A DNA stretch of 64,000 nucleotides from Heterodontus francisci (Eukaryota): assembly GCF_036365525.1 (NCBI RefSeq), contig NC_090404.1, positions 3,658,001 through 3,722,000 of the forward strand, read 5' to 3'. The translations under genes were made by a program, and so were the position numbers. The notes below the pieces were generated by a model. It did not search any database. It was not told the DNA's origin and saw nothing but the letters and a program-made list of their open reading frames with translations. Every line of letters begins with the position of its first letter. Within the stretch, counting starts at the first letter, position 1. Positions 4,898 through 33,977 of the stretch are shown here, piece by piece.

Positions 4898-4984
4898 ATT
4901 CAGGTAACACTGATCACAATAATTAACTGATGGTGAACATTAACCGGGACAATCTGCAGCACAGCAGGATTAGGAGTCACTTAC

Positions 4985-5426: not shown

Positions 5427-5441
5427 GTTTATCCAAGAAAA
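5427..5441 (-). other. NTCRD: NAR-TCR D segment, cassette 1 (TTTTCTTGGATAAAC), flanked by two 12-class RSSs
   Basis: Heptamers at 5420-5426 and 5442-5448. 3' nonamer GCAAATATC at 12 nt (5399-5407); 5' nonamer-like (G)TCAAATCC(C) at 12-13 nt (5461-5470). Lies between V and J. Confidence 0.85.
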
Positions 5442-5794
5442 CACTGTGCTTCAAATCAGCGTCAAATCCCCCGGTACTTGGTGAGATGTGAGAACGTTAG
5501 TTAAACGGCGGGGGTAGCGGTCCCCGGTTCCAACTGTTAGAACAGGATCCCATCTGGTGTTAGGGATTTGTAAATGGGATCAATCATTCCCAATCGCCAT
5601 TCACTGACACAAATCCTGGGAAAGACATCACCATCCGCACACACTCGGCATTTATAAAACTCAAGATGTTAACAGCAATAATCCAATCTCATTATTAACT
5701 AGACTGTGGAGCAGTCGGTGCGAGGCGGAACTGTGGGGTTTAACAGCAGATTAACTCCACTTTTTCATTTATTTCTGCGATAATCTGCAGTGAG

Positions 5795-5832
5795 AGTTTT
5801 TGTATCGCGGGAAGCCGAGGCCCATCACTGTG
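5795..5832 (-). other. RSS 3' of NAR-TCR V1 (23-class, 22-nt spacer)
   Basis: CACAGTG at 5832-5826, 22-nt spacer, ACAAAAACT at 5803-5795. Confidence 0.92.
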
Positions 5833-6120
5833 TGTTGTACCGGTACTCAGCTTTACAGTAATAGGTGGCGGTGTCTTCAACTCTCACATCCCGAATTTCC
5901 AATGAAAATGTCTTTTCTTCCGTATTCGTCTTCATCAAAAATCGCCCTCCGCTCGAGATCTTCTCCCGTTCTGTCCCGGTCTGGGTTTGTCTGAAGAAAT
6001 CCCCCCTCTTTAAAGGACGAGCGTAAAAACCACCATAGAAAACGCAGTTGATAGTGAGAGACTGACACTCCTTCTTGTTCTCCGATGCCGGGGTCTGTAC
6101 CACTGACTGGCTGAAAGAAA
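5833..6120 (-). CDS. NTCRV: NAR-TCR variable exon (IgNAR-like V), cassette 1
   Basis: Acceptor tttccAG ending at 6121, in frame with the leader. Translation QSVVQTPASENKKECQSLTINCVF...FFRQ...ISSGGRF...KTFSLEIRDVRVEDTATYYCKAEYRYN. VNAR hallmarks: CDR2 region deleted, 'ISxGGR', 'YYCKA'. Extra FR1 Cys as in NAR-TCR V. Confidence 0.92.
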
Positions 6121-6270
6121 CTGGAAATTAAACAGACAGAAAGTTTAATGGGCCATCAGAGCCGAACCACACAACGGGGCTAACACCCCAGAAAGTGACT
6201 GTAATTTGGATGGACTCGGGCAGCTTTATATTAAATCCACACAATGTCGGTGTGTTTGATCGGTACTCAC

Positions 6271-6313
6271 GGGGTAAACAGACACACAGGGCGAAAACAA
6301 GGAGGATTCCCAT
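6271..6313 (-). CDS. NTCRV: Leader exon of NAR-TCR V, cassette 1 (MGILLVFALCVCLP)
   Basis: ATG at 6313-6311; 43-nt hydrophobic signal-peptide exon; phase-1 GTGAGT donor at 6270-6265; TATA-like CATATAAA about 25 nt upstream. Confidence 0.9.
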
Positions 6314-6337
6314 CGTTCTGCTGCCTGGAGCTGATGG

Positions 6338-6440
6338 TTTATATGACGGGGAGCTGGAGACTGCAGTCCTGGACTGCTCTGGGAGACTGGACCTCAGAGC
6401 TGGACTGAAATGCTTTCGGAGTGGTCGAGTTGATTTGCAG
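6338..6440 (-). promoter_or_regulatory. Putative NAR-TCR V promoter: TATA-like box with adjacent CRE half-site and an octamer-like motif
   Basis: Minus strand CCCGTCATATAAA (6350-6338) and CTGCAAAT (6440-6433, 7/8 match to ATGCAAAT). Both are retained in cassette 2. Confidence 0.45.
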
Positions 6441-8434
6441 AGGGCAGTGTCCCGGAGATCATTTATCATTGATGGGCCGCACGGTTCCCGGGTCTCTGGA
6501 TGTGTGTTGTGACTGGTTTAAAGAGGAAACAGTTTTCTATCGCTTCATTGGGTCTATGAACTCGATGTGAAATCCCCTCCCACATTAGTCTGATGTACAC
6601 GGGGTGGGGCTGGGGGAGTTGTTCTGTCAGTAGACGCTGCCGCCCTCCTTTTCCCCACAGTAATGAGCTGGGAGGTCGGTCCATGTGTTTTCCTGGGTGG
6701 TGTTTGTTGAGGGTGGAATGTGGGCTCAGGACACCGGGAGAATCCCCTCTCCCGGCTCTTATTCCAATAGTGCCGGGGATTCTTTAACATCTCCCTGAAC
6801 GAGCTGGCCGGTCCTCAGTTCAAGGTATGGTCGAAGGACGGCGCTTCTCATAGAACCATCGAAAAATTACGGCACAGAACGAGGCCATTTAGCCCATCAT
6901 ATCAGCGCAGGCTGAAAAAAGAAACAAGTCGCCCTTCCAACAACTAGTCCGCAGCCTTGCAGGTTCCAGCTCTTCAGGTGTATATCCAGGTACCTTTTTA
7001 AAGAATTGAGGGTTTCTGCCTCCGTTCTGACACCGTTCCTGGCAGTCAAATCCAGGCACCCACCAACCTCTGGGTGAAAAGGTTTTTCCTCATGTCCCCT
7101 CTAATCCTTCTATCCTAAATCTGTGCCCCCTGGGAACTGACCTCTCCGCTAGGGGAAACAAGTCCTTCCTGTTTACTCAATCTAGGACCCTCAGAATGTT
7201 TTACACCTCAATTAAGTCACGCCTCAGGATCGTCTGTTCTCAGGAACACCACCCTCGCCGATCCAGTCTTTTCTCGCAGCTGCAACATTCAAGCCCGAGC
7301 AACATTCTTGTAAATCTGCACTGTACTCTCTCCAGAGCAATATGTCCTTCCTGTAATGTCTTGTGATGTCCTTCCAGCAATTGAGGCTCAGGTTACAATC
7401 TGAGACAGTCCAGTGTCATTGTCAATATCCAAATAGATATACACATTTTACACTATCCCTGCCATTTAAACGCATGCTCCCTGCAGCGCCACTAACACCC
7501 ACCCCGCACCCAACACCTACCCACCCCCACACCGACCCCCCCCCCCCCCCCACCCCTCCCCCCTGTGGTTTGCATTTAAAATGATGTCTCAATTCAGTAA
7601 TGATTGGCTTCCAGGTCTGTAATATTCAGAGTTTCCAGTTGCAAGGAATAAAGCGATACTCGGAAAGACATTGGGGGAATTCTATGCTTGGTGTTTGTTA
7701 AGATCATCGTCACCAGCTTGTGTAATCTGTACATTGTGGATAAACAGTCTCTGACCCAACAACATTGTCTGATCAAATAAAACCTGTGAACAGGCATCGG
7801 TCAAAAGCTCCAGGAAACCGACAGAAGAGATGGGGAAAGTGCTGCTCAACATTCAGGCAGGCATGGAAAGGGCAGTGAAGGAGCAAAGGGGACTTCAGAA
7901 TCAACGCACGTAACACAAACATGGCCGAATTTACGTCACACTAACATGGCCGATATTTAAATAACCTCACAGCAACGCCGGATGGGCGACCGTAGGGTCC
8001 CAATGTCCACCCAGATACAATTCTCATTTGCTTGATCAGAAACAACTTTAAAAGACCACACACAAACTCTTTGCTTTATACGTAATCTTTGCACAAATAT
8101 TTATCCAATTCCCCTTTGCTTTTGAATGTTATAATTGAATCTCCCTCTCCTACCCTGTCAGGCATTGCATTCCAGATCATAATTGGGTTGTTGGATAAGG
8201 CGTTTTTCCTCAAGACTACAACAAAGACAACTTTTATTTATATAGCGCCGTTAATGCAATGAAGCGTCGCCGCAGCAGGTAACGACAGTGATCTTATTGA
8301 AACATGAATCCTGCAGATGCCAATGTTGTTGAGAACATAATTCACCGTCTGCCCTGTCAGAAGACGGAATATTATCAATGTTAATATTACTCAGATTACT
8401 GCACAGCTCAATGTTACGAGACAACAAGCCCTGA

Positions 8435-8645
8435 AAAGAGCCAAAGACTTGCAGGTTGATAGGTAAATTGGCCATTAGAAATTGCCCCTAGTATAGGTCG
8501 GTGGTAGGGGAATATAGGGACAGGTGGGGACGTAGTAAGCATATGGGATTAGTGTAGGATTAGCATAGATGGGTGGTTGATGGTCGGCACAGATTCGCTG
8601 GGCAGAAGGGCCTGTTTCAGTGCTGTATCTCTAAATAAAAAAAAT
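8435..8645 (+). mobile_element. HE1-like SINE, 3' half
   Basis: Matches 377-570; absent from duplicate copy 2. Confidence 0.75.
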
Positions 8646-9829
8646 AATCGGAGGAAGAAATAATGATTGAATTAATTTCAATCCACACTTCAGGGAGGTT
8701 TTCAAGGCCTTGGAACGTTTGCAGAAGGCATTTAATAGAATTGGGCCAAGACTTCAATTCTGCAGAGATATTAGAAAAGTTTGGATCGTGCCCATAGAGC
8801 AGAGGAGTTTAAATGGAAATTTAATAGTGCTGATGAAGGGTTTTGAAAGTGTTGATAGTGAGATGTTATTTCCACTGGCAGGAGTGTTGGCAACCAGAGG
8901 ACACAGATTTCAGATAGTTGGTAAAGGAAGAAGACAGGAGATGAGCAGCTTTTCTTTCTAATGCACCGATTTGTTATGAGCAGGCATGAAGTTCCTGGCG
9001 GGCGGTGGAAGCAGATTTCAAATGGAAGTTGAATAATTACTTGAAAGGGAAAGATTTTCAGAACTTTGGGGAAAGACCCGGAGGGTGGATCTGATTGGAT
9101 AGTTCTTTCAAAGAGACGTCATGATGGGCCGAATAACATCCTTCTGTGTTGACAGATTTCAGAATTCAATGTATTTCCATTACATCAATCAACAGTTTTA
9201 TAATTGTGCTCCTGAAGTTGGTATTTGTGATATTAGTATATGAAAGTTTAACAGCAACGACATTAACCGTTAGAATAAACCTGTAGATATAAAATGTCAC
9301 CTTAGTTCATTCAGCATTTTAATAGCAATTTGGCTGAAGCAACTAGATTCTGATTTCAGATTCAGTAGATTGTGGATTCAACCTCAATTTCAGTACCTTA
9401 GCATTTTAACCAGGCTAAAATTGGTGCAGTGCTGTAAATGCACTATCTTTCTGGGGACAGTTTGAAGCAATCATCTCTCCCCTTCTATCTGCGCTGACCA
9501 AGCAGAGGAGTGGGACTGACCGAATATCTCCATGGGGGCATGCATGGATTTGATAGGCTGAATGGCCTCCTTCTGTGCCTTAAATGACTCTCTGATTCTA
9601 TGACTCTATGCCTGTTGCGGAGGGCATTACAACTCCCATTGTTCCACACTGTGTCCTGGTCAACATTTTTTCCTTTAACCGAGATCAACACAAATATATT
9701 CACAGGAATTGAGTCACTATGCTCGATTGCTGATATTGATGCGCAATAATCGGCCACGTTCATCTGAAATTAGTTGCACTTCATATACTTTGGTTCCTCC
9801 CGCAGAGTTGATGAGCTCATACATCAATG

Positions 9830-10650
9830 CAAGATGCAGTACTGTACTTGGTCTCACCTTTATCTGTCTGCATCTATTGATGTCTCTCTGTATCACTGTA
9901 TTCTGTCTCACCTTTATCTACCTCCCAATGTTGGTGTCTCTCTGTATCACACATTTTACTCAGTCTCACCTTCATCTATGTTCCTTATTTGGAAGCTCTC
10001 TCAAAGTTTACAGACCAGCACAGGATCTATGGAGGAGGGTCTCACTCAGCTTCAACGCTCCATCGATCAAATCTTCTACCGTTGAAAGCAGACAGCTGAT
10101 GCCCCGTTGGAGGGTGTGGGTGGGCGAGAGGCTGGGGGGCACATTCATCCTTCTGCACAGGGAAATTGCTCAGGTATTCAATCAGAGAGAGGACTGGCCC
10201 ACTGAAGAGAGCCTCATTCTCCTCCTCATGCAAAAATCTCAGATCGCTGATTATTGAGATCAGGGAGGCACTGAGTTGATCCACCATGCGGAGCCTCACT
10301 CATCTGCATAGGGACATTGATCAAAACTTTAAAGACTGAGAGCAGATATGCACTGAGCTGAGTAACATAGAGGACAGCATTCACCCACCTGCACAGGTAC
10401 ATTGCTCGGATCGTTAACCATTGAGTATAGAGAGACAGTCAGCTGATCCACCGTGGGGAACTTCATTCACCTGCACAGTTTACATTGTTAAGATTTTTAA
10501 CCATTGAATACAGACAGTATATGGGTTTATGCACAGAGGGGGCCTTACTCACCTGAATAGGTACGTTGCACAGATGTTAAACTTTGAGTACTTACAAGGA
10601 TACGACTGTTCCACCGTTAGGGCCTCACTTCCTTCCACTGGCACATTGCT
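9830..10650. repeat. Degenerate tandem repeats (CTCACCTTTATCT-containing units, then CACCTGCACAGG units)
   Basis: Recurring motifs; the first block has more units in copy 2 (~36440-36700). Confidence 0.55.
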
Positions 10651-11384
10651 CAGAGCTACCTTTCATTTTATTATTTCATGGTTTTAATCCACTGTTTATA
10701 TTCCTTCTCCATGTCTAGAGCTTTTTAAACCTCTATTTATCTCCGTTACTGTTTCTTTTTCCGATTGCTCGTTTCTCCCCATTTCCAGAATTCCATTCAC
10801 AATCCCCAGATACTCCCTTGGCATAAACATAAGGGAACAGTCATTTCAAACAGATGTTGAGAAAACAGACAGGTAACAAAAAAAAAACAAAGAACAGGTT
10901 AAAATAAAATAATTTTTTGTATGAAATAGGACAATGCAAGTAATGGAATGAAAGGAAGATCTGATCAATGACCCTGTACAGGTGACTGTGTGTTCCCTCG
11001 GTGGATCAGCTCAGTGCGTGTCGATGCTCAATTGTCAAAAGACGATTCCCACATCGCAGCTTTAGACTCAGTTCCCAGCGGCAGAGGGCTGATACTGGCA
11101 CAGGGCAGAAGCCATCGCCCATCCCATCACCACCACCACCCTGGATACAGACAATTCCCCTTGGAGTCTTCCACACCTCGGAGCGGGGTCTGTGATGCAG
11201 AAAGCTGTTACTTGGTAGTTGCGGGGCTCTGCACCGGGCAGAGCGGGGTTTGTGTGACAAGCCTCTGTTATATTCGCGGAAGTTAGAGATATTGACCTTC
11301 AGTCAGGTTGATAACTGTCTCTGTATCTCTAAACTTCCTGACTCACTGCACAGCTGCTGAAAGTGTATTGCAGGACGGTGGTTT

Positions 11385-11720
11385 ATAAAGTGAGGCATGG
11401 TCTGGTTAAGTAACAACTGACATAGGGTCTAACGTGTTATAAAAAGAAAGGGTCTAGTACAGTATAAACAGAGGCAAGATCTAGTGTAATATTAACAGAG
11501 ATGTGGTCGAGTGCAACAAAAACAGAGGCATATTCCAGTGCAGTACTTAGTGAGACAGGTACTCATGTAATATAATCAGAGACCTATTCTAGTGCAGTTT
11601 AACTGAGACAGGATCCAGAGTAATTTAAACAGAGACATGGTCTAGTTCAGTAATAATTGATGGCCTAGTGTAACATAACTAGAGATCGTGTCTGCTGCAT
11701 TAATAACTGAGACCGTCGCA
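11385..11720. repeat. Degenerate ~30-bp minisatellite (GGTCTAGTG.AATATAAACAGAGAC)
   Basis: Recurring motif; paralogue at ~38110-38435. Confidence 0.55.
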
Positions 11721-12086
11721 AGGGTGACCCATGGGTGAAAAGATACTTCTTATGGTGCGAATGGAATTCACACTTCTAACCAGATCATCTTAAACCTGAT
11801 TGTGGCGGCATTAACAGAATGGGTGTTAGCATTTGTAGATCCGACCGGAATCTATATTTTGTTATCTAGGGCACATCGAGTGGGCTGGAGACAGGCTGGA
11901 GAATCCGCTCCCCAGAGGACAGGTGAGCTCACCAATTTAATCCGAGTAGGTTCTGGGAACACAGTGAGATTTAAAACCACAGAGTTTCTGATGGTCAATT
12001 CCCAGATCTGCCAGCGAGTGAAGCTATCTCCAGGCACCTTAGCTCAGCAGTTAATGGCCGACTCGGTGTGCGACTTGTATAATACT

Positions 12087-12794
12087 TGTAAGCGGTGACC
12101 GCTTTGTGGAACATCTCCGCTCAGTCCGCAAGCAGGACCCTGAGCTTCCGGTTGCTTGCCATTTCAACACTCCCCCCTGCTCTCATGTTCACATCTCTGT
12201 CCTGGGATTGCTGCAGTGTTCCAGTGAACATCAACGCAAGCTCGAGGAACAGCATCTCATCTACCGATTAGGCACACTACAGCCTGCCGGACTGAACATT
12301 GAGTTCAATAATTTCAGAGCATGACAGCCCCCCCATTTTACTTTCATTTTTAGTTATTTTTTCTTCCTTTTTTTACATTCCTTCTTACATTTTTTACAAT
12401 CTTTTTTTGCATTTATTTCATTTCATCTTGGTTTGTTCAGTTTGCTTACCCACTGTTTTTTTCAGGTTGTTTTTCTTCAGGTTTGCACTTGCTGCTGTTC
12501 AATATTCAGTGTCTTCACACCTAATCTGTACTAATGCTTTGTCTTTCAACACACCATTAACATATTGTTTGCCTTTGCTCCGTGACCTTTTGGTCAGCTA
12601 TGTGGCCTGGTCCAATCTGCACCTTCTCCTTTGTTATCTCTTGCCCCACCCCCACCTCACTTATTTATAATCTGTGACTTTTCTAATATTTGTCAGTTCC
12701 GAAGAATGGTCACTGACCCGAAACGTTAACTCTGCTTCTCTTTCCACAGATGCTGCCAGACCTGCTGAGTGATTCCAGCATTTCTTGTTTTTGT
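12087..12794 (+). mobile_element. Penelope-like element 3' fragment (GIY-YIG end plus tail) with 18-bp target-site duplication
   Basis: EHLRSVR...VACHFN...RKLEEQHLIYRLGTLQPAGLN. Flanked by TGCGACTTGTATAATACT (12069-12086) and TGCGACTTGTATCATACT (12795-12812). Empty site in copy 2 at ~38754-38771. Confidence 0.88.
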
Positions 12795-13769
12795 TGCGAC
12801 TTGTATCATACTGGCAGAGATTAGCTTTTCCAGACTGATGCTGCAGGGTGATTACTGCAGGCTTGCTGCCATCTGGTGGAATAAATCAGAAGTTCTCTCT
12901 CAGCAATGTTTCCTTCATTCGGAGAACTTTTATTTCGGAGTTCATTTCCTAACACATTCAGAAGGAGACCACACTAAAATGGTTGTGATAATTAAATAAG
13001 TAAAGTGAACAGTGAGATTGTTAAGAATGTTACCTGCTGAGGCAATAAATATAGCAGAAGTGACATTACCGTCCGCATTGGGAGCAGACTTTGTCTTTTG
13101 TTCGTGCACTGACTCAAACTCTTATCTTGCACGTTTTTGAGCTTATATGTGTTGTATATCTTGTGCTCTTAGTCACAAGTTTCTAACGTGATAACATGTC
13201 AATGTATTCAGGTTATGTTTAATTGATGCTAAGCACTTTCATTAAATTATATCATTTTCTTTAGTGAGTGTGAGCGCCGCTTTTTATCTTTGTGTAATGT
13301 CCTTTTCACGGTTTTTATGTCACTATTGCAACATTTTTGACACTTTTTTATATTACAATTTTGTATTCAGTCGGTCTTTGACCATCTGGACTGGTGCCTA
13401 GAACACACCATACCTGTCCTTAGAGATTATTAGTCCATCAATCATTTTTTGTCAGCTTCTATTCCTGTCCTGAAAATAGCCTCTTAGATCCAAATATTAT
13501 TGTCGATTCTTAGTTTTAATATGTGTAAAAGTCTTTAAGATTGAGAAATGTTTAATCAAGCTCCTTTAATTATTCGGATCTTCCCCATCGAGCGTGCCTG
13601 CCGAGACTGTAGAATGATATTTTGAACCAAACATTACTTGTTCATTTGCAGTGAGTTATATCCGAAGCAGCGGTGCCTGGGAATAACTAATTCCACGCTA
13701 CCTGCTGGAGTTTGTATTTTCAGTGTGAACGGCGAGTTCCCAGAGATTCACAGATCAACAGCAGCCAAT

Positions 13770-14081
13770 TCATCCCCTACTCCCTGCACAGTAATAGACC
13801 GCGGTGTCAGACAGCCGCAGCTCCGAGATGATCAATCGGTACAACTTGTCTGACTGCTGGACTATATCAGAAAACCCGTTCTGAGAGAAATCCGCCTTAA
13901 AGACAGCACCGCCGCTAGCGTCCCTTCAGACTGCAAACTCGGACAGACTGCCTTGGTATTGGCGGTAGCAGAATAAGTAATAACCCTTGTCTGCATAGTT
14001 CCAGGTTAAAGTGGCATCTTCTGCCCTCTGTTTGTGTGAGCGAGGGCTCCCGATGAGTAACAGAATCTCCATCGCTCAGAT
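13770..14081 (-). pseudogene. TCR V-alpha/delta pseudogene (copy 1)
   Basis: Reads DGDSVTHREPSLTQTEG/EDATLTWNYADKGYYLFCYRQYQG...AV*...RLIISELRLSDTAVYYCAGSRG. Frameshift, first Cys changed to Trp, conserved Trp changed to Cys, internal stop, no RSS visible. Confidence 0.82.
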
Positions 14082-14189
14082 CTCGAACAAATCTTAAAGA
14101 AAGCGGAAGTCACCGATCAAACGTTCGAAATGGACCACACTGGCGGTGAAAATTCGCAGTCAGTGTTTTATACATTTAAATATAATCTA

Positions 14190-14728
14190 AAGCAAAGAAA
14201 AGATCATTCGGCCCAACTGGTCCAAGCCAAGCTTCACACGCCCCCCAGAGCATCCTTCACCCTCTTCATCTCCCTCTATCAGCATATCCTTCATCCTTTT
14301 CTCCCTCATCTGTTTACCCAGCTTCCCCTTAAATCATCTATGCTATTCACCTCTATCCCTCCTTGTGGTAGCGAGTTCCACATTTTCATCGCTCTCTTGG
14401 TAAAGAGGTTTCTCCAGAATTCTCTATTGGATCCTTTGGTGACTCATATTTATAGCCCATAGACTTGGAATTCTCCACGAGTTCAAACATCTCACCAAGT
14501 CTACCCTATCGAACTCCTGCATAATTTTAAAGGTATCTATCAGGTTACCCTTCAGACCCCCAGTCTGTCCAATCGTTTCTAATAGATTGTCAATTCTAGT
14601 TCCATTTCTGTAAATCGTTTTTTGCACTTTCTCCTGTTCCCCTATATCCTTGTTGTAACATGGAGACCAGAACTGCTCACAATAACCCAAGTGTGGTCTA
14701 ACTAAGCTTCGATACAAGTTTATCATGA
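14190..14728 (-). mobile_element. CR1 3' fragment in the V pseudogene intron
   Basis: LYRSLVRPHLGYCEQFWSP. Paralogue at ~40140-40685. Confidence 0.75.
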
Positions 14729-14793
14729 ACTGCCTTCTATTTCACATTTATTCCATTGATAATCAATCCCTTTCAAAAAATTTACCTTTTTAC

Positions 14794-14845
14794 CAGCAAT
14801 GAAGGTCATCCAGAGCACGGCGAGAATGGGAGCCGCACTGCCGTT
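14794..14845 (-). pseudogene. Probable leader remnant of the V pseudogene (GSAAPILAVLWMTFIA)
   Basis: Hydrophobic stretch ending in a phase-1 GTAAAA donor at 14793; no initiator ATG at the expected position; a CR1 fragment sits in the intron. Confidence 0.45.
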
Positions 14846-15109
14846 GCTCTGGAACTCAAGCGCCTTGCTTTGCCTCAGAAACCTGCAAAACAAAACAAAA
14901 AACAGGAAAGACATGATACTTGCCTCATGTCACTTCTTGCAGGGCACGAAATAGAAAAAGCTGAGAGAATTTGTTCAGACTGGTCTCATGCCACGTCCAT
15001 AACCACACGTATGTATTTTTTATTCGGAGAACTGAGACATGAATATAGCATACTGCTGATCAGAGAGAAAATTCATATCAATGGTCACCTGCATCTTAAA
15101 TTGACCTGA

Positions 15110-15722
15110 GATACAGCTTGATCTCCAATTCATCTGAGTCAGTTTGATCTGTAATTTATCTGAGAAATAGTTTGATCTCTAATTGATCTGAGAGACAGTT
15201 TCATCTCTAATTGATCTGAGACAGTTTGATCTCTAATTGATCTGAGACAGTTTGACCTGTAATTGATCTGAGAGACCGTTTGATCTCTAATTAAGCGAAG
15301 AGATAGATTGATCTGTAATTGATCTGAGAAAGTTTGATCACTCATTGATCTGAGAGACAGTTTGATCTGTAATTGATCTAAGAGACAGTTTGAACTCTAA
15401 CTGATCTGAGAGAGAGTTTGATCTCTAATTGATCTGAGGCCGTTTGATCTCTAATTGATCTGAGAGAGAGTTTGATCGCTAACTGATTTGAGACAGTTTG
15501 ATCTCGATTTGATCTGAGACAGTTTGATCTGTAATTGATCTAAGAAACAGTCTGATCTCGAATTGATCTGAGACAGTTTGATCTCTAATTGATCTGAGAG
15601 ACAGTTTGATCTCTCATTGATCTGAGACAGTTTGATCTCTAATTGATCTGAGGGACAGTTTGATCTCTCATTGATCTGAGACAGTTTGATCTCTAATTGA
15701 TCTGAGAGACAGTTTGATCTCG
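15110..15722. repeat. GATC-rich satellite, short array (24/26-bp unit (GA)GACAGTTTGATCTCTAATTGATCTGA)
   Basis: Direct tandem repetition. Confidence 0.95.
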
Positions 15723-16410
15723 ACCCGGCAATGTGAAAAATTGCCCAGGTATGTCCTGTACATAAATCGGGAGGACTATTCCAAACCGGCCAAGTAAACC
15801 CCCGCCCCCACCCCCCCCCCCCCCCCCCACCGCCAACAACCCCCGCACCCGCCTCCCCCCCACATCAATCTACTCTCAATCATCAGTAAAGTGATGGAAC
15901 GTGTCATCAGAAGTGCCATCAAGCGGCACTTGCTTAGCAATAACCTGCTCAGTGATGCCCAGTTTGGGTACCGCCAGGGCCACTCATCTCCAGACCTCAT
16001 TACAGCCTTGCTTTAAACATGGACAAAAGAGCTGAACTCAAGAGGTCAGGTGAGGGCTTCAGAGGGTACATGTTGAGAGGGCGTTTCCCGTCGTGGGGGA
16101 ATCTAGAACTGGGTGCACAGTTTCAAAATAAGGGATCTCCCATTTCGGACGGAGATGAAGAGGAAGCTCTTCTCTCACTGTGTGGTTATTTTTTGGAATT
16201 CTCTAACGCAGAGAGCAATGGAGGCGAGATCATTAAATATATTCAAGGCCGAGTTGGACAACTTTTTGGTCTACAAGGGAGTCAAGGGTTATGGGGAGTA
16301 GGCAGCAAAGTGGAATTGAGGCCAAGTTCAGATCAACCATGATTTTAGTGAATGCTGGAGCAGACCGAAGCGCCGAATGGCCTACACCTGTATGTATTTT
16401 TGATGTTTCA
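15723..16410 (+). mobile_element. Fused LINE fragments (RT piece plus CR1 3' end) abutting the satellite
   Basis: KIAQVCPVHK...QFGYRQGHS followed by HSFKIR...FWNSL...IFKAELD. Confidence 0.7.
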
Positions 16411-17000
16411 ATGATACCATTTTCCTGAACCAACTGAACATTACCCCAGTGATCATCTCTCCGTTCTCCACTCCCTCTGATACCATTTCCCTGAACTCAC
16501 TGAAATTCACTCCAGGGACCTCTCAGTGAACTTCACACCACCTCCTTCACCGTCTCATCGGCTTTTTCCAGAGCCTCCCGGCCACAGAAACACGTCCAAA
16601 GCTTTTTGATCGGAACCGAATATATTTTGACATTTGCCTTCTAATGCTGAGTAGCTTTTAATCTTAACTCCCTGCTCCATCCCTTCTGATATCATCTCCC
16701 TGAACTCAATGAGGATCACACGAGGAATATGCCAGTAGGCATCAGATCGTCCGTCCCTGTTACCCGAAAGTTTGGATCCACCTGTTTCGAGTCATCGATT
16801 TTATTATTGGCCTGGGGAATATCCACAGACGCTTTGGGAGTTAAGAATAGATATAGACTGATGTGATTAATTAACTCAATCGATGTATATTGAAAAATAA
16901 ATTGTGGGAAAATAATACTTCAGGTGAAAAATAAAACTAAATAAAATTATACTGATATGATATATTTTGTTCATAACGTAAATATGTTTCCTCCTCTACA

Positions 17001-17136
17001 TCGTCGTTGATTCCTCAGAAACATCTGGAATGAAGATAATGAGAAAGAGAGCGGCAACATCTGGACAACTGCTTCCACATTCATCATCCCGTTCTTCCTG
17101 ACCATTTTCTGCAGTTTTTCCTTCACTTTGGTGAAG
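17001..17136 (+). pseudogene. Orphan Ig heavy-chain (IgM-like) transmembrane exon TM1
   Basis: VDSSE/IWNEDNEKESGNIWTTASTFIIPFFLTIFCSFSFTLVK followed by a GTGAGA donor at 17137. Matches the IgH TM consensus WTTASTFIxLFxLSxFYSxxVTLVK|VK. Acceptor damaged, 1-nt frameshift, YS motif changed to CS. Confidence 0.82.
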
Positions 17137-18449
17137 GTGAGAATGTTCAGACTTCAGTATGACAGAGGTCGTTTCACAAATCTCTGAAAATATCATTGAT
17201 GAAAGCCTGAAGAAATTGCCCCAGACCATTAAACCACTGCTTCATTCTTTATCCCTCTTTTACAGGGCAAATGATCGATTGGATTTCGGGTGCCACGGAT
17301 TTTTCTTATCTGCTTCTCAATATTTCTGCATTCAGATAATGAAATATGTTGTCTTTGTGATTCTCCAAGTAAAATACGTTCATTTATTAGATCCGAATCC
17401 ACCGGTTGGACAAAGGGAAAACATTCATTCCAACATTCTGTTTGAAAAATGTATTCATGTGTGAGATAATCATGGTGATAATGTAATTGCATCTCAATGT
17501 TTCACAGTTGCTTGAATATTTAAGATACATATCCCTGAAGTTTCTCATTTCTTATTCATTCTTGTTCCCTTCCCTTTATTTTGATTCCTTGTTTTCTCTC
17601 TCTGGTCTTTTACAGTCGCACAGAGAGATGGAAGCTCAGACCGCGTGTATTCTGTTCTCAATGTGACGCTCATTTGTTACATTCACTTTGTGTTAACTTT
17701 TAAATTTTTCTCTCTCGATTGTTCTCTGTCAAATTGTTAATAAATCTCGAATAGCAAATCGGCAAAGTTCGCTTTTGCGGATTTATTTTTCTCCAAGGCG
17801 ACTCCTCACGGTCCCATTTTCCCATTCATTTTATTTCTCTGGCAGGTATTTTTCTCCTGCTTTGTCTGAGTAAGGTTTGAACACAAGTCCCTATTGTTCA
17901 AGGAACCAGTGCGCCATTCAATGACGCATCAAAGCAAACACACCTTTCCCTTCATGGCTCAGAGGCTGAATGGCTGCATAGACACGAGGTGCACCTCCCA
18001 GTCTACCCTGACACTTTAAACAGTAGCAATCACATTCCAGGTTCCATTAATGAGCAGGACTCTGCTCCAACACAGCCTTATATAATACAGCACATTGCTG
18101 ATTACATTTCCATTTACACAGTACCATCAAATATTCACAAGGCATGCACAGCACAGTTTAGGTGTCGGACACAGACACAACGGGAAGCACAAAACCTTGG
18201 AATGATTCACAGAGCCTGGGGCCCAGGGACACAACAAAAAGCATAAACCCTGAAAATTATTCCCATGGACTGGGACTTATCAAACACATCAAGGAACAGA
18301 AGCCCTCAGAAGGATTTGGCATTGTAACACTTCGCCTCAACCTATAAACACAAACACTCTATCTCCATCTGTTTTCTGTTATACCCATTAACCCGGCACA
18401 TCTGTCACCTGTTTCGCTGAAGACGCTTCGCTCTGCTCTGCTCCAGTCC

Positions 18450-18800
18450 CTCAGATCTCATCTCCTTGAACTCACTGAACATCACCACAGGGATCCTCTC
18501 TCCCTGCTCCATTCCCTCTGATGCCATCTCCCTGAACTCACTGAACATCACCACAGGGATCCTCTCTCCTTGCTTTCATTCCCTCTGATACCATTTCCCT
18601 GAACTCGCTGAACATCACCACCAGGGATACTCTCTCCTTGCTTTCATTCCCTCTGATACCATCTCCCTGAACTCGCTGAACATCACCCCAGGGTTACTCT
18701 CTGCCTGCTCATTTCCCTCTGATACCATTTCCCTGAACTCACTGAACATCACCACAGGGATCCTCCCTCCTTGCTTTCATTCCCTCTGATACCATCTCCT
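18450..18800. repeat. ~67-bp tandem repeat (about 5 units); related units at 16410-16720
   Basis: CTCTGATACCATCTCCCTGAACTCACTGAACATCACC at 18516, 18583, 18651, 18717 and (partial) 18784. Confidence 0.85.
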
Positions 18801-20307
18801 GGAAGTAACTCATGTATCGGCGAGTGACCCTCAGACTTTCCCTGCCTATTTCTCCGAAGTTTCGCTGCCTCTGCTTCCTCGTCTCATTTGATTATTTCGG
18901 TGCCTGCTGGCCACTGGAATGTCTCAAGAGGTTTCTGGCCACACCCGAGTATTGCCCTCTGATTCCGGAGCTGTTGTGGTTGAATAGAACATCAGGTTAA
19001 TGTGGGAAGAATTAAAGGACCATTATGAAGGGATCAGAAGGAAGTTTTGAATGCATGGAATTGCTCTTTAAAATCTGTCTGTGTTCCAATCTCTCACACT
19101 CCCCCCTCATATCTCCGGCCACCCTCCCCCTAACCTCATTCACCGTCTCCTTGATTTCTCCCCGTGCTCCCGCCGAACCTCGGCTCGGGTGGCTCTGACG
19201 GTGCGAGATCACTTTAAGAGGGCGGAGTTCACTCTCGTCACGGGTAGCACAGTCCTGGGTCACGAGTCACAGTCAGCGCAAACTGAACCTCATAATCCCT
19301 GAGTGGAGGGTGGTGAGGCCCCTTGATGCGGAATGAATGGGAGAAACGGCGCTGTGACGTGAAAGGATTGTGACGTCGTCCGCGATGGGGCAAACTGTCA
19401 GCCATCTTTGTGTGACGGAGCACACTGAAAATGTCATCTGTTTCTTTCTGTATAAAAACCTTTATTGAAAGGAAAAGTGACTTCAGTTTTCATCAAGATC
19501 GTTAGTTAATCTAAAAGGATAAACGCGAAATTTGGGTTGAAGCGAAACTTTTCAATGGGTGTCCTTAAAGCAGTTGGGGTAGTGTGCATGTGCGTCCCGT
19601 TCTCCCAGAGAGCAGGTCGGCCCGGCCCATCGAGAGGGGCCTTTCCCAGCTGTTGTGAATTGTGGGAGCAGCATCACTCAATGGCCCAGTCATTAACTGA
19701 GTGAATCCAAACGCAGAATAAAAACAGAAAGTGCTGGAAATACTCAGCATGTGGCAGCAACTGTGGACAGAAAAACAGTGTTAACTGTTCAGGTCTGTGA
19801 CGTTTCATCCTCCTTCCAGCCGGGACCTGCCCGGGTTGTTGGTCCCGAAAAACTGCGGATGTCCTGTTGAGTGGAGAATCTCTGATCGGAGAATGAAGCC
19901 GGGAAATCCCAGGAGGTGTTCACCAACGCAATCGGGAAAGACGGATTCAAACAAAGAAAAAGAGAGGAAACTTCACTGTTTGCCAGGCAAATCGGCAGTC
20001 AATAAATTTAACCTCTATGGTGATACACGACTAAGCAGAATATGCATTTTTATGGAAAGACTCACATTGTGTACACAGAAGGAAGTGAGAATGTGGGGTA
20101 AATGCTGAATTAATTAAATAGTGGAATCGAATTGGGCATCAGAAAGGAGCAATGCTGAAGGGCGTGAGCAGGAAAATGAAAGTGAAAACTTGATGAGCTC
20201 AGTGATGATTTATGCACGATAAATTCTACGATTAATTGCGATTGAAGATTTATACACTTTCCCCGTGCTTTATATCCTTGGGTCTCTGCAAATCACAGCA
20301 TGTTCAG

Positions 20308-20535
20308 GTTTTCTGTACAGCTTTGTCCGTGCGCTGTACCACTGTGTTTTGCTTTATCCCACCGTGCTCATGTTTCTGTACACTTGTCTCCGTGCTCTGT
20401 ATCACTGTGTGTCTGTAATCCCCACCATGTTCAGGTTTTTGTACAGCTCTCTCCGTGTTCTGTATCATTGTGTGTCTGTAATCCCCACTATGTTCAGGTT
20501 TTTGTGCAGCGCTTTCCGTGCTCTGTATCACTGTG
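20308..20535 (-). repeat. Tandem array of four 23-RSSs (63-bp period) 3' of the supporting V-delta
   Basis: Heptamer/nonamer pairs, each with a 23-nt spacer: 20535-20529 CACAGTG / 20505-20497 ACAAAAACC; 20472-20466 CACAATG / 20442-20434 ACAAAAACC; 20409-20403 CACAGTG / 20379-20371 ACAGAAACA; 20346-20340 CACAGTG / 20316-20308 ACAGAAAAC. Confidence 0.93.
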
Positions 20536-20843
20536 AGCTATGCGCCGACTCAGTGCACAGTAATACACAGCAGAGTCACTCAGTTGTAGTTTGGAGATGT
20601 TTAACCGGCTGATTTTCTCGGCAGGATCAATGGAAGCAGAAATTCGTCCCCCAGCAGCGTTTTCTTTATTCTCCTCTCCTGAAGTTTGTCTCTGAAGCAG
20701 GTATTTCGGAGCCTGCCCTGGGGACTGACGGTACCAGTGTACTGTGTACTGACAGAACCCTGAATATTCACAGCTTAAAGTAACAGTCTCACCGACAGCA
20801 GAGGTTTGTCGAGGCGGACTCCGGGACACCAGCGAACTGGAAT
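20536..20843 (-). CDS. STCRDV: Leaderless supporting TCR-delta V exon (partner of NAR-TCR cassette 2)
   Basis: Acceptor ctacAG ending at 20844; phase 1, matching the J2 donor. Translation (D)SSSLVSRSPPRQTSAVGETVTLSCEYSGFCQYTVHWYRQSPGQAPKYLL...SRLNISKLQLSDSAVYYCALSRRIA, with canonical C/W/C and a non-canonical CDR1 Cys. No leader exon seen just upstream. Confidence 0.92.
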
Positions 20844-23161
20844 CTGTAGTTTGAAAATATGATATTATTATGTCTTTAGTTGCTGTTTCCTTGGAGACAC
20901 ATGTGAATCACATAGTGCGGCCTTTCGCGATAATGCCTCTGAAGCCCTTTCGAACTTGATTCACTTTCATTGGCAAAGAAGCAAGCCGGGAGCTTCCAGT
21001 GACATTGATACTTTATTTATTTAGGCTGCGAGCTGTTCTGAAAGGGTGGTGGATCAGTTTCAATGATAACTTTAAACAGGCAATGGGATATATATAGTGG
21101 GGAAAGAGCAGGGTGCGTGGGACCAACAGAATAGCTCTTTCAAAGGGCCGGCGCAAGCAAAATGGGTCGAATGGTTTAATTCTGTGCTATATCTTTCTAT
21201 AATTTCTATTAAATACCTGTTTCTTTTTTGGTGTGTGTGAAAGTCTACCAAAAGAAACATTTCAGTAGTGTATTCTGATCCTGTTGGAGACGATCACCTT
21301 GCAAAGGTGTTTGACGGCGCTTAACCCGTGTGTTGGTCAAAGGTGCACAGCAAGATCTAACAGAAAGCAACGATTGAGCAAAGTTGACTCAGAACTCCTG
21401 TGTGTTGACGATCAGGGTTTAACTGCAGGTTAACATTCACGGGAGCGCCTACCTACCTCTTGCTTTATTTGTTCCTCTTTTTTTTCAATAATGAGGCCCG
21501 TTTTAATCCGTTCCACTTTAATCTGAGATGCATGCAGTTACTTTCATTTTATTTCCACATCTGGGTCGCTCATGTTGTTCTGTTATTTGTCACCATGGGA
21601 ACTTGTCCCGATGTCTCTCAGTTGTCGGTTGGATTCAGTCTGTGCAGTTTCCGCAGTGGTTTTACTGTTACTCTCTGGGAAATGGCTCTTCCGGCTTTCT
21701 GGCAATTTATATTCCTGCAGCCCATTCGTTGATTTTCTTCCGTGTTCTCCGAGCGGAGTTTTCTCTTTTTAATAATATACAGAATCTGCAGAACAGGAAT
21801 AGACCATTCCACCCAGCTGGTCTATGCCGGTTTTAATGTTCAGCATCCTGCCATATGAATTCCCTCTTCCCACCCCGAGCCCTGTGTTCCTCCATTCCTT
21901 TCTCTCTCCTGTATTTTTCAAGCCTCCCTTAAATTACACAATGTTGTTTGCTCCAACCATTACATGTTCTATACTCCATAATAAGTGTGTCCTAACGTCT
22001 TTTTTTTTCTCAGTGACTATTTTATATTGATGGCCTCTTGTTCTGGATTCACTAACAAGTGCAAACTGTTTCTCCTCCTGTACCCTATCCAACCACATTA
22101 CAATATTAATGACATCGATCTAGTCTCCTCATTGTCTTCTCTTTTCCAATGAAAAGAGCCCCAGCCTCTTCGATCTTTCCACATGATGTAGATTGCTGCT
22201 GCTCTCTGTTCACAAGAATATAAGAAATCCAAAACTGCGGAAAGGACCAGAGCTCATTCGTAGCCCGTCCCTCCAATAAAGCTCATTGCCTCGGTGTCAG
22301 ATTGTCCTTTCACTGGCTTTGAGATTGTTTTCTCCACACTCGCGCCTGGCCGATGAATCCGATTTTTGTCTCCCGTTCCGTGAATTATTTCTTGCTTGCT
22401 GTAAATGGACTCTCTTCCAGTCTGCATTTGTTCCCTGGGGTGTTCCTCTTCTCGTTTATAACAATTTGAGAAGCTCGCACTCACGAGCGCACTGAACAGT
22501 ATTGTTTCACGAATCAATAAATAGGGATGCAGTTAAATTACTGTCATCCAAATTCTCAGACACGGATAGGAAATATTAGAATTATCATAGAATGTTATAA
22601 CGCAGAAGGAGGCGATTCACCCTGTCGTGTCTGTGAAGGTTCTCTGCAAAAGAAATTTCACTACTCCCCGCCCTTCTCTCGTCGTCCTGATTTTTTCCCC
22701 CTTTCAGCTGCGTATCCAATTCCGTTTTAAAAAACACGGTGAAATCAGCCTTGACCACACTCTCAGCCAATGAATTCCAGAATGTATTCCAACTCGCTGT
22801 GTGATGAGGTTTTTCCTCATGTCGCCTTTAGTTCTTTTGCCATTCACTTTAAACCTTTGTCCTCTGCTTCTCGATACTTCTTCAAATGGGAACAATTTCT
22901 GTCTATTGAGATCTCTCATGATTTTGTACACCTCGATCAAATCTCCTCTCAACCTCCTCTTTTCGAAGGAGAACATCTCCAGTTTCTCCAATCAATCCTC
23001 GAAACCGAAGTACCTGAAATCTGGAATAGTTTTCATAAATCTGTCCTGCACCCCCTCTAACACATTTAGATTCTTACTAAAGTACTATCGCAGAATTCGA
23101 CACAATACTCGAGCTGAGGCCGAAACGGTGTTTTATAAAGATTCATCATAACTTCCATGTT

Positions 23162-26469: not shown

Positions 26470-27850
26470 TTAATTTTGTCCCCGATTATATGTAGCAACC
26501 ACTTAAGGAGAAATTGCATAACTCTCAACAAATATATATCCATTGAGAATGAAAAAACTCTACGAAAGGATGAACCATCTGTCGCTAACGAAGGAAGTTA
26601 AGAATGGCATCAAATTGAAAGAAAAGCCATACAATGGTGCGAAGATTAGTGGGAGGTCAGAAGTTTGGGAAAGTTTTCGAAACTAGATGACTGAAAAGAA
26701 ATAAAGAGGAAGAAATTACTATATCAGAGTAAACGAGCAAGAAATCGAAAAACAAAGTAAGAGCTTCTTCAAGTAACTAAAATGGAAGTAAAGTAAACCT
26801 TGATCCCTGAGAGGATGAGATTGGGGAATCAATAATAGGAAACAAGGAAATGGCAGAGACTTTGAACAATCATTTTGTATCTGCCTTTGTTGGAGAACAC
26901 ACTATAACAAGTCCCAGGAATAGTAGAAGATCAAAGGGCAAAGGGGAGGGATAAACTTGAAACTCACTATCACGAGAGAAAAATTACTGGGAAAACTAAT
27001 GGGACTGAAGGATGTCAAGTTCCCTGGACCTGTTGGCCTGCATCCTAGGGTCTTAAAAGAAGTGGCTGCAGAAATAGTGGATGCATTGGCTATAATATTC
27101 CAAAATATCTCGAGTCGGGCAAGGTCCAAATGGTTTAGAAAAAATGCAAATGTAGCAACACCACCCCCCCCCCTCCCCCGCCCCCGCTCCACCTGTTCAA
27201 GAAAGGAAGGAGTCAGAAAGCAGGAAACTATAGGCTAGTTAGCCTAACGTCTGTCATTGGGAAAATACTGAAATCCATTATTAAGGAAGTAATAGTAGGA
27301 TATTTAGAAAACTCATAATACAATCAAGCAGAATTACCATGATTTCATGAAGGAAAGTTCAATGGGGAAGTGAAAAAAGAAATAAGAGCAGCAAAGAGAG
27401 AGTATGAGAAGAGACTGGCAGACAACATAAAAGGGAATCCAGAAAACTTCCATAGGCATTTCATTGATAAAAAGGGTGGAAAAAGGAAGAGTGGAGCCAA
27501 TTAGAGGCCTAAAAGGTGAAAGTTGGCTGTGATGTGAAAAAAAGAATAGTGGCGAATGGTCGTTTTTAGGACTAAAGGAAGGTAGATAGTGGGGTTAGGG
27601 CCATTGTTTTTCTTGATCTATATTAATAACAAGAATTTGAATGTGCAGGGTACAATTTTAAAATTTGTGGATGACGCAAAACCTGGAAGAATTTTGAACT
27701 GTGAGGGTGATAGGGATAAACTTCAAGAGAACATAGACAGGTTGGTGGAATAGGCATACATGTGGCAGATGAAATTCAATGCAGTGAAGTGTGAAGTGAT
27801 ACATTTTGGTAAGAAGAACGAGGAGAGCCATTTAAAGTAGAGGATATTGT
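26470..27850 (+). mobile_element. Degraded CR1 ORF2 fragments
   Basis: KFPGPVGLHPRVLKE and GNYRLVSLTSV remnants. Confidence 0.7.
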
Positions 27851-32684: not shown

Positions 32685-32747
32685 CGGCTGTCACGGTCAC
32701 CACCGTCCCGGATCCATCCGCATAAGCAGTGTACCACTTTTTATCCA
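32685..32747 (-). CDS. NTCRJ: NAR-TCR J segment, cassette 2 (DKKWYTAYADGSGTVVTVTA)
   Basis: 23-RSS at 32748-32786; GSGTVVTV motif; GTAAGT donor at 32684. Confidence 0.92.
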
Positions 32748-33132
32748 CACAGTGACACCGCTGTCAATCACCTCCGTACAAGAACGACCGACAGTTCAAT
32801 CTGCCGGCTGGACATCACCAGACAATCCGCGCTGCCCAATATTCCAGGGATTTCAGATCAGTAGACATTATTCCATGTTTCGTATTCCCCCGCTTCAAAC
32901 TGTTCTTTGTGAGACTCTGAGCTCTTCGTAAAATAGCCCAGAAACAGGGGCTGGAGTTGGCGCTTCATATAAACGAAGCAAATGTCAAATAAAGATAACA
33001 GAAGATATGAAATTACAATGACATTAACCAGATTACAGCGATAATAATAGCAACCCTGCAATTCAGGATTCTGGCACGGAGAATTTATATTTTAATTGTA
33101 TAGAGATATTTGCTCAGGTCTCCCCCACTGTG

Positions 33133-33148
33133 GTTTATCCCAGTTAAA
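33133..33148 (-). other. NTCRD: NAR-TCR D segment, cassette 2 (TTTAACTGGGATAAAC)
   Basis: Heptamers at 33126-33132 and 33149-33155; 12-class RSS on both sides, as in cassette 1. Confidence 0.85.
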
Positions 33149-33539
33149 CACTGTGCTTCAAATCAGCGTCAAATCCCCCGGTACTTGGTGAGATGTGAGA
33201 ACGTTAGTTAAACGGCGGGGGTAGCGGTCCCCGGTTCCAACTGTTAGAACAGGATCCCATCTGGTGTTAGGGATTTGTAAATGGGATCAATCATTCCCAA
33301 TCGCCATTCACTGACACAAATCCCGGGAAAGACATCACCGTCCGCACACACTCGGCATTTATAAAACTCAAGATGTTAACAGCAATAATCCAATCTCATT
33401 ATTAACTAGACTGTGAAGCAGTCGGTGCGAGGCGGAACTGTGGGGTTTAACAGCAGATTAACTCCACTTTTTCATTTATTTCTGCGATAAACTGCAGTGA
33501 GAGTTTTTGTATCGCGGGAAGCCGAGGCCCATCACTGTG

Positions 33540-33827
33540 TGTCGTACCGGTACTCAGCTTTACAGTAATAGGTGGCGGTGTCTTCAACTCTCACATCCCG
33601 AATTTCCAATGAAAATGTCTTTTCTGCCGTATTCGTCTTCATCAAAAATCGCCCTCCGCTCGAGATCTTCTCCCGTTCTGTCCCGGTCTGGGTTTGTCTG
33701 AAGAAATCCCCCCTCTTTAAAGGACGAGCGAAAAAACCACCATAGAAAACGCAGTTGATAGTGAGAGACTGACACTCCTTCTTGTTCTCCGATGCCGGGG
33801 TCTGTACCACTGACTGACTGAAAGAAA
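33540..33827 (-). CDS. NTCRV: NAR-TCR variable exon, cassette 2
   Basis: 288-nt open exon, 4 substitutions versus V1 (by eye). RSS: CACAGTG 33539-33533, 22 nt, ACAAAAACT 33510-33502. Confidence 0.92.
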
Positions 33828-33977
33828 CTGGAAATTAAACAGACAGAAAGTTTAATGGGCCATCAGAGACGAACCACAGAACGGGGCAAAAACCCCAGAC
33901 AGTGTCTCTAACCAGGATGGACTCGGGCAGCTTTATATTAAATCCACACAATGTCGGTTTGTTTGATCGGTACTCAC

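What the first reader, a model, noticed from the sequence alone, without database searches (positions are those of the whole stretch)
17001..17142. Orphan IgM-like transmembrane exon inside the TCR-delta/NAR-TCR region, on the opposite strand
Seen: a recognisable IgH TM1 exon with an intact donor, not called by the ORF track, with no CH exons visible nearby. It lies between the supporting V-delta and the next cassette. Inference: it may be a fossil of an IgH cluster that inserted into the TCR alpha/delta locus, the type of event proposed to have generated NAR-TCR and Ig-V/TCR-delta chimeras. Its inverted orientation and IgM-like sequence suggest an event separate from the NAR V-D-J insertion.
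Basis: partly seen in the sequence, partly recalled or inferred. Interest (0 to 1): 0.7.

Follow-up and report, generated by a model that had tools for sequence, protein, structure and literature searches.

The report
Dead IgM tail beside NAR-TCR cassette
This is a broken leftover of the membrane-anchor end of a shark IgM antibody gene, one of 61 such exons mixed among T-cell-receptor genes on this chromosome, and it was likely copied along with its neighbouring T-cell-receptor cassette and then eroded, so it is ordinary debris of an arrangement already published for other sharks.

Summary
The exon is real and of IgM type: 30/39 residues match intact IgM TM1, 10-13/39 match IgW or IgNAR. It is dead: the splice acceptor is AG>TG, one base is deleted, and substitutions look neutral. 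It is not alone. TM2 and IgM 3' flank follow, so the relic spans about 16,410-20,105 and ends about 200 bp from the supporting V-delta's RSS array. Nor is this a TCR-only region: 61 IgM TM1 exons (33 on +, 28 on -) lie among TCR V segments and NAR-TCR cassettes over 10 Mb, a mix already tabulated for great white shark (PMC12227049, table S1). Seven of 25 supporting V-deltas examined continue into IgM 3' flank, in an erosion series from a whole IgM cluster down to flank only. Four sister copies add a dead TCR-type constant gene beyond the IgM piece. Likely history: an old IgM/NAR-TCR tail-to-tail block, duplicated and deleted. It appears much younger than NAR-TCR, and its orientation says nothing. 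The scan earlier described a sister relic and that constant gene elsewhere in this genome.

The parts
15093..15721 (.). 27/28-bp satellite; end of the recent local duplication unit (1-15.7 kb matches 27.7-41.7 kb at 91-96%). The IgM exons upstream of the relic are missing beyond the repeats that follow it
16412..16670 (+). Left edge of the relic: remnant of the 66-bp minisatellite and the flank that normally follow an IgM TM region; likely the tail of a lost upstream TM copy (TM-A)
   Evidence: 67% to IgM 3' flanks at G000:C34 9.990 and 11.223 Mb
16975..17009 (+). Pyrimidine tract and dead splice acceptor (TG in place of AG at 17008-17009)
17010..17136 (+). IgM TM1 pseudo-exon (TM-B type): one-base deletion at 17019/17020; 10 replacement and 3 silent changes against the majority of intact copies
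17137..17265 (+). TM1-TM2 intron, GT donor and AG acceptor intact
17266..17274 (+). IgM TM2 exon, reads GK-stop where intact copies read VK-stop
17275..18430 (+). IgM 3' UTR and flank; one AATAAA at 17739
   Evidence: 67-69% to intact IgM clusters, 82% to the TM-B copy at 6.054 Mb
18431..18810 (.). 66-bp minisatellite (5.1 copies) found downstream of IgM TM regions
18811..20105 (+). Distal IgM 3' flank, collinear in pieces with flanks of IgM clusters at 3.89, 7.33, 8.34, 12.27 and 13.86 Mb
20106..20250 (.). Junction segment between IgM flank and supporting V-delta, shared with sister cassettes
20299..20535 (-). Array of four 23-bp-spacer RSS copies at 63-bp period behind the supporting V-delta
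20533..20868 (-). Supporting V-delta exon, open, with CDR1 cysteine
   Evidence: feature described in PMC1845163 passages
32685..33834 (-). NAR V (33532-33834), one D (about 33132-33177) and J (32685-32747) of the same cassette
5825..6127 (-). NAR V of the next, duplicated cassette; its supporting V-delta lies just left of the window and keeps only the 3' flank part of the relic

Best explanation
This is a non-functional IgM membrane-exon remnant (TM1, intron, TM2 and 3' flank) that likely descends from an IgM minicluster lying tail-to-tail with a NAR-TCR cassette, and was likely carried along when that block was duplicated and then trimmed by deletions. Shown: IgM type, dead acceptor, frameshift, 3.7 kb extent, and paralogous copies with more or less of the IgM left. 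Inferred order: (1) an IgM 3' flank came to lie about 200 bp from a supporting V-delta's RSS array; (2) in one lineage the IgM TM region duplicated in tandem (TM-A, TM-B); (3) the block was copied to several places along the 10-Mb array; (4) each copy lost a different part. At 6.27 Mb a whole IgM remains (a different, single-TM cluster). At 8.49, 8.57 and 8.66 Mb CH1, CH2, a bit of CH3, TM-A and TM-B remain. The window keeps only TM-B. At 3.65 and 11.12 Mb only 3' flank remains. It likely makes no protein and does not take part in NAR-TCR rearrangement.
For: Isotype: 30/39 to intact IgM, 10-13/39 to IgW/IgNAR; IgM separates from IgW+IgNAR at 99/99. Lesions. Substitutions are 10:3 replacement:silent, fitting neutrality (binomial p 0.74), against 53:47 pooled over 27 distinct open copies (p 9e-9). 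Closest paralogues are 6.054 Mb (85%) and 8.50/8.58/8.67 Mb (84%), against at most 74% for the other 45 of the 50 copies aligned; these five form a 100/100 clade on 588 columns, and all five lack the AG acceptor. Erosion series. Junction-flank tree: window, 3.653, 8.499, 8.671 and 11.126 form a 99/99 clade; all 7 cassette rows fall on one side at 83/81. Mixed array. The same mix of 'IgM pseudo', 'IgM (missing V)', NARTCR and TCR V is listed for great white shark in table S1 of PMC12227049.
Against: The supporting V-delta exons of the seven junction-bearing cassettes are not one clade (4 changes, 0 of 200 bootstrap trees with one), so losses or exchanges between cassettes must be assumed. On the exon plus 80 upstream bases alone (213 columns) the five TM-B copies split into two supported groups with no supported join. 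The neutrality test has little power (Fisher p 0.14 against the open copies), and the pooled open set counts related copies repeatedly. The 6.28 Mb junction differs after about 20,105 and may be independent. The order of events is inferred from one genome; 11 of 61 TM1 copies were not fetched for the trees.
Confidence: 0.83

Rival explanations
1. An IgM cluster was inserted, inverted, into a self-contained NAR-TCR unit (NAR V-D-J, supporting V, then D-J and its own constant gene), replacing the D-J part and killing that constant gene; the window keeps the last trace of this insertion.
For: At 8.48, 8.56, 8.655 and 11.118 Mb a broken TCR-type constant gene lies on the cassette's strand beyond the IgM piece, giving the order NAR V-D-J, supporting V (-) | IgM (+) | C (-). 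All 4 places found for this gene in the genome are in such blocks. The IgM flank ends about 200 bp from the RSS array.
Against: A sawshark gene model (P0095/P0240, Pristiophorus japonicus) joins the orthologous constant region (60%) to a different V and J, so it may be a separate neighbouring gene whose V-J was deleted together with the IgM's 5' end. No TCR J was recognised between that C and the supporting V (2 stray motif hits in the four stretches scanned). The window itself holds no trace of the C gene. General shuffling of the array explains adjacency without a targeted insertion.
Confidence: 0.11
2. The coding exon is dead, but the IgM 3' flank is kept next to the supporting V-delta because it carries a regulatory element (for example an IgM 3' enhancer) that opens the cassette.
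For: The distal flank (about 19,570-20,105) is the part kept in all seven junction-bearing cassettes, even where the TM exons are gone.
Against: Deletions that spare the V will tend to spare the DNA next to it anyway. 18 of 25 supporting V-deltas examined do without this flank. The flank diverges as much as the rest (82% window vs 8.67 Mb).
Confidence: 0.04
3. The exon is an isolated orphon moved by retrotransposition or by a repeat, or an ancient relic of the event that created NAR-TCR.
For: No CH exon lies within 64 kb upstream, and LINE/SINE fragments and a satellite border its left edge.
Against: The TM1-TM2 intron and kilobases of genomic flank are kept. Sister copies still hold CH exons. 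All strong copies sit in one 10-Mb region. The sequence is IgM, closest to this genome's own IgM, whereas NAR-TCR is shared with chimaeras (PMC1845163).
Confidence: 0.02

Closest known systems
Elasmobranch antigen receptor complex (AgRC), Flajnik et al. 2025, PMC12227049 (seen: parts 1-2 of 8 of the text, keyword passages, and all of table S1)
   Same: IgW, TCR alpha/delta C, IgM, NAR-TCR and IgNAR on one chromosome. TCR V exons lie between IgH clusters. In great white shark, 'IgM pseudo?' and 'IgM (missing V)' models alternate with NARTCR and TCR V models in both orientations; the stingray sheet lists 'IgM C only' and 'IgM pseudo' next to NARTCRV.
   Different: The table lists gene models, not TM-only relics. 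In the parts seen it does not describe a shared IgM-tail/supporting-V junction, a duplicated TM region or an erosion series. This genome holds far more IgM copies (61 TM1 hits).
Shark IgM minicluster (VH-D-D-JH-CH1-4-TM1-TM2), including pseudogene and germline-joined clusters (PMC5192425, keyword passages; membrane IgM C region P0005)
   Same: TM1 sequence, short TM1-TM2 intron, TM2 and 3' flank.
   Different: No V, D, J or CH exon; acceptor lost; frameshift; belongs to a sub-family with a tandemly duplicated TM region.
NAR-TCR cassette (NAR V-D-J plus leaderless supporting V-delta; PMC1845163 passages; Criscitiello 2006 not held)
   Same: The host cassette has a NAR V, D, J and a supporting V-delta with CDR1 cysteine, and matches full-length NAR-TCR gene models of other sharks.
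   Different: The relic is a passenger on the opposite strand and is absent from most cassettes.
IgH V/TCR-delta trans-rearrangements and TAILV (known here only through PMC12227049 and PMC6795676 passages; Deiss 2019 and Ott 2021 not held)
   Same: Both reflect the close mixing of Ig and TCR genes.
   Different: Those involve V segments with RSSs; this is a constant-region tail with no V to donate.

Membership tests
Elasmobranch IgM TM1 exon (origin) | Sequence closer to IgM TM than to IgW or IgNAR TM | tested here: met
   30/39 vs 10-13/39; 99/99 split. The IgW and IgNAR labels are inferred from position, last-C-exon similarity and linked NAR-like V, not from named records
Elasmobranch IgM TM1 exon (origin) | TM1, short intron, two-codon TM2, IgM 3' flank | tested here: met
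Functional membrane IgM | AG acceptor and open phase-1 frame | tested here: not met
   TG at 17008-17009; one-base deletion; stop after 30 codons
Functional membrane IgM | Linked VH, D, JH and CH1-CH4 upstream on the same strand | tested here: not met
   none by tblastn or nhmmer in the window; nearest CH4 64.8 kb away with its own TM
Functional membrane IgM | Transcribed and spliced | tested here: inconclusive
   contigs of three guessed-RNA runs laid on TM1 carry other letters, as expected of paralogues; contigs cannot show absence
IgM pseudogene fragments of the AgRC | Broken or partial IgM among TCR alpha/delta V and NAR-TCR segments, linked to TCR-delta C, IgW and IgNAR | tested here: met
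   compare table S1
Relic of the NAR-TCR founding event | IgNAR- or IgW-type sequence | tested here: not met
Relic of the NAR-TCR founding event | Present at most cassettes of the genome | tested here: not met
   TM1 at 5 of 26 supporting V hits; IgM flank at 7 of 25 examined
Relic of the NAR-TCR founding event | Older than the elasmobranch-chimaera split | tested here: not met
   closest to own-genome IgM, 19/38-39 to chimaera IgM; non-coding flank still 71% to an intact cluster. The protein tree does not resolve branches within elasmobranch IgM
Relic of the NAR-TCR founding event | Same junction in other shark species | not testable with these tools

The most novel reading that the evidence does not exclude
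The relic marks an old three-part block, NAR-TCR cassette | inverted IgM | a third, divergent TCR alpha/delta-type constant gene. An IgM cluster invaded and silenced a self-contained NAR-TCR unit that had its own constant region, which survives intact in sawshark. NAR-TCR would then once have been organised as Ig-like miniclusters with a dedicated C gene.
Probability: 0.11. Interest if true: 0.65.

Novelty: new member of a known kind. Interest (0 to 1): 0.24.

Why it matters
As a gene it does nothing. Its value is as a marker: a shared junction and a graded series of deletions show that IgM clusters and NAR-TCR cassettes were duplicated together as blocks in the shark antigen receptor complex. 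That is the physical setting in which Ig/TCR chimeras arise. The trail also leads to a divergent TCR-type constant gene, dead in all four copies found here but with an intact-looking sawshark gene model, which deserves its own look.

Tried and rejected
Cryptic acceptor at 17017-17018: it would be in frame only with a phase-2 donor, whereas intact TM1 exons are phase 1; rejected. Retroposed orphon: rejected because intron and flanks are kept. IgW or IgNAR origin: rejected. Degraded CH exons or the extra TCR C gene in the window or the 154-kb stretch around it: none beyond the complete cluster at 3.59-3.61 Mb. Pfam gives no family for the TM peptide or for an intact TM1. Expression: no RNA holder listed. 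Contigs of three guessed-RNA runs of one sample lay on TM1 only with other letters (2-8 per 37-96 bases, T>C at 17070 in all depth) and left TM2 and the 3' UTR uncovered; this is no evidence of absence. A single origin of the junction from the supporting-V exon tree: not shown. Named longer relatives of the extra C exon: none in the word-indexed search; one at 61% in the representative search. Deiss 2019, Ott 2021, Criscitiello 2006, Matz 2021 and Flajnik 2024 were not held, so they and their supplements could already describe IgM relics beside NAR-TCR. Seven paper searches showed no title or abstract on this junction. PMC3964593 gave one passage on Ig/TCR linkage; its supplement was not read.

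Full report
Observation. The window is G000:C34:3,658,001-3,722,000. On the + strand, 17020-17136 reads as an Ig heavy-chain TM1 peptide ending at a GT donor. An intact paralogue finds it at E 2.9e-11 in the whole genome. It lies between a supporting V-delta (20533-20868, -) and the NAR V of the next cassette (5825-6127, -). Both V types match full-length NAR V-J-V-J-C-delta gene models of other sharks, and the supporting V has the CDR1 cysteine described in PMC1845163 (passages). No CH or IgM VH exon was found in the window.

The exon is dead. In intact copies the exon starts after AG in phase 1. All 41 of 41 reference copies outside the TM-A/TM-B set have that AG; the window has TG at 17008-17009. 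One base is missing at 17019/17020, so the normal phase stops after 30 codons. Against the majority of 39 open copies the window has 10 replacement and 3 silent changes, which fits neutral drift (p 0.74). The 27 distinct open copies pool to 53:47 (p 9e-9). The direct contrast is not significant (Fisher p 0.14). The changes include Leu>Pro in the membrane span and loss of a Tyr that intact copies keep; that this Tyr matters for CD79 binding in mammals is recalled, not tested.

It is IgM. The peptide matches 30/39 residues of an intact IgM TM1 from a full VH-D-D-J-CH1-4 cluster. It matches 24-26/39 of catshark and bamboo shark IgM, 19/38-39 of chimaera IgM, and 10-13/39 of this genome's IgW-like (1.5-2.0 Mb) and IgNAR-like (33.8-43.6 Mb) TM exons. 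IgM separates from those at 99/99; branches within elasmobranch IgM are unresolved.

It is larger than reported. A GT-AG intron leads to TM2 at 17266-17274. IgM 3' UTR and flank follow, with a 66-bp minisatellite, and align in collinear pieces to several IgM clusters up to about 20,105. The RSS array of the supporting V begins about 200 bp further on. To the left, 16412-16670 again matches IgM 3' flank, likely the tail of a lost upstream TM copy. The relic therefore spans about 3.7 kb.

Context. The genome search gave 68 matches from 68 candidates. Sixty-one are IgM TM1 exons, all on C34 between 3.61 and 13.86 Mb, 33 on + and 28 on -; six weak ones are IgNAR-like and one (E 1.0) is on another contig. 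Fifty-three of the 61 have a CH4 within 9 kb upstream; 8 do not. Over the same span lie 26 supporting-V hits, about 37 NAR V hits and many ordinary TCR V segments in both orientations (lower bounds). Two C-delta genes lie at 3.30 and 3.46 Mb and C-alpha at 3.18 Mb. A complete, germline-joined IgM cluster sits between them and the window. Flajnik et al. 2025 (PMC12227049; parts 1-2 of 8, keyword passages and table S1 read) report this linkage, and their great white sheet alternates IgM, 'IgM pseudo?', 'IgM (missing V)', NARTCR and TCR V in both orientations. An IgM fragment here is expected, and its orientation carries no information.

Relatives. Fifty of the 61 copies were aligned. The closest are 6.054 Mb (85%) and 8.50, 8.58 and 8.67 Mb (84%); all others are at most 74%. 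The five form a 100/100 clade on 588 columns. On the exon and 80 upstream bases only, they fall into two supported groups without a supported join. The 6.05 Mb copy is the second TM (TM-B) of a complete VH-J-CH1-4 cluster with a tandemly duplicated TM region. The three 8.5-8.7 Mb copies keep CH1, CH2, 40 bases of CH3, TM-A and TM-B, and each ends 2.3-2.4 kb from a supporting V on the opposite strand, as here. All five TM-B copies lack the AG, by two different changes.

Which cassettes carry it. Five of 26 supporting V hits have an opposite-strand TM1 within 8 kb downstream. Of 25 examined for flank (the partial V at 13.663 Mb left out), seven continue into IgM 3' flank: the window, 3.653, 6.281, 8.499, 8.580, 8.671 and 11.126 Mb. 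An eighth copy of the junction at 10.429 Mb has an RSS array but no V directly attached. On the flank tree the window, 3.653, 8.499, 8.671 and 11.126 group at 99/99, and all seven cassette rows included fall on one side at only 83/81 (8.580 not included). Against a simple history, the V exons of these cassettes need four label changes on their own tree, and the 6.281 junction, beside a whole single-TM IgM, differs in detail. Pairwise identity is 96% to the neighbouring 3.653 copy, 86% to 6.05 Mb, 82% to 8.67 Mb and 71% to an intact cluster.

A third element. Beyond the IgM piece, the copies at 8.48, 8.56, 8.655 and 11.118 Mb hold a TCR-type constant gene on the cassette's strand: a C1-set exon (Pfam E 2e-11) and a TCR alpha/delta-like TM exon. 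It is only 20-27% identical to this genome's C-delta and C-alpha. Three copies have a stop and a frameshift; the fourth has an open C1 exon but no GT donor at the expected place and a shortened TM. A sawshark gene model carries a 60% identical C with its own V and J, and a TM in one isoform; that V was not found in G000. The window has no trace of this gene.

Mechanism. Most likely (0.83) an IgM cluster came to lie tail-to-tail with a NAR-TCR cassette in the mixed array, its TM region duplicated in one lineage, and the block was copied and eroded by separate deletions. The window keeps only the second TM unit. Identity, lesions, extent and paralogue anatomy are shown; order and single origin are inferred. 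Rivals: insertion of IgM into a self-contained NAR-TCR unit with its own C (0.11); retention of a regulatory flank (0.04); isolated orphon or founding-event relic (0.02). NAR-TCR is shared with chimaeras (PMC1845163; PMC3964593, one passage), so a relic nested among this genome's IgM copies is unlikely to date from its origin.

Verdict. Observation confirmed, interpretation partly supported. A new member of a known kind: IgM pseudogene debris in the elasmobranch antigen receptor complex. Seven paper searches showed nothing on this junction, but five key papers were not held. Interest 0.24.

Noticed in passing
window 20299-20535 (-); other cassettes on G000:C34: Four 23-bp-spacer RSS copies at 63-bp period follow the supporting V-delta. 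19 of 25 supporting V-deltas examined have two or more within 520 bp; the one at 10.435 Mb has 13.7 repeat units. The scan has noted such arrays in other shark and ray genomes.
   Followed up: partly
L104:88-408 (-) (G000:C34 11.118 Mb); also 8.481, 8.561, 8.655 Mb: [quoted passage not shown] Possibly an undescribed TCR-like chain.
   Followed up: partly
L042:5521-5880 (G000:C34 3.5935 Mb) and following loci: IgM cluster with an in-frame germline-joined VDJ and open CH1-4 and TM1, about 130 kb from a TCR-delta C gene.
   Followed up: no
L091, L092 (G000:C34 3.46 Mb +, 3.30 Mb -): Two divergently oriented TCR-delta-like C genes, 57% identical in the C1 exon, each with a TM exon.
   Followed up: no
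L032-L033 (G000:C34 6.050-6.055 Mb): Complete IgM cluster with a tandemly duplicated TM region separated by a 2.3-kb 66-bp minisatellite. TM-A has splice sites but no TM2; TM-B has TM2 but no acceptor.
   Followed up: partly
L088 (G000:C34 8.8834 Mb, -): A second TM1 without CH exons in the 14 kb upstream that was fetched, protein-identical to intact IgM TM1 but with TM2 partly deleted; TCR V segments lie upstream.
   Followed up: partly
window 13776-14045 (-), 39739-40008 (-), 46257-46437 (-): Broken ordinary TCR V segments; the first two are copies from the local duplication.
   Followed up: no
window 1-15721 vs 27678-45274: Recent local duplication (91-96%) of a NAR-TCR cassette, ending in a 27/28-bp satellite that is 0.6 kb in one copy and 4.2 kb in the other.
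   Followed up: partly
window 58146-59195 (+): 349-codon open frame of tandem C2H2 zinc-finger repeats (pattern recognised by eye).
   Followed up: no
G000:C34 4.00-4.83 Mb: Twelve near-identical IgM clusters on the - strand at about 75-kb spacing.
   Followed up: no
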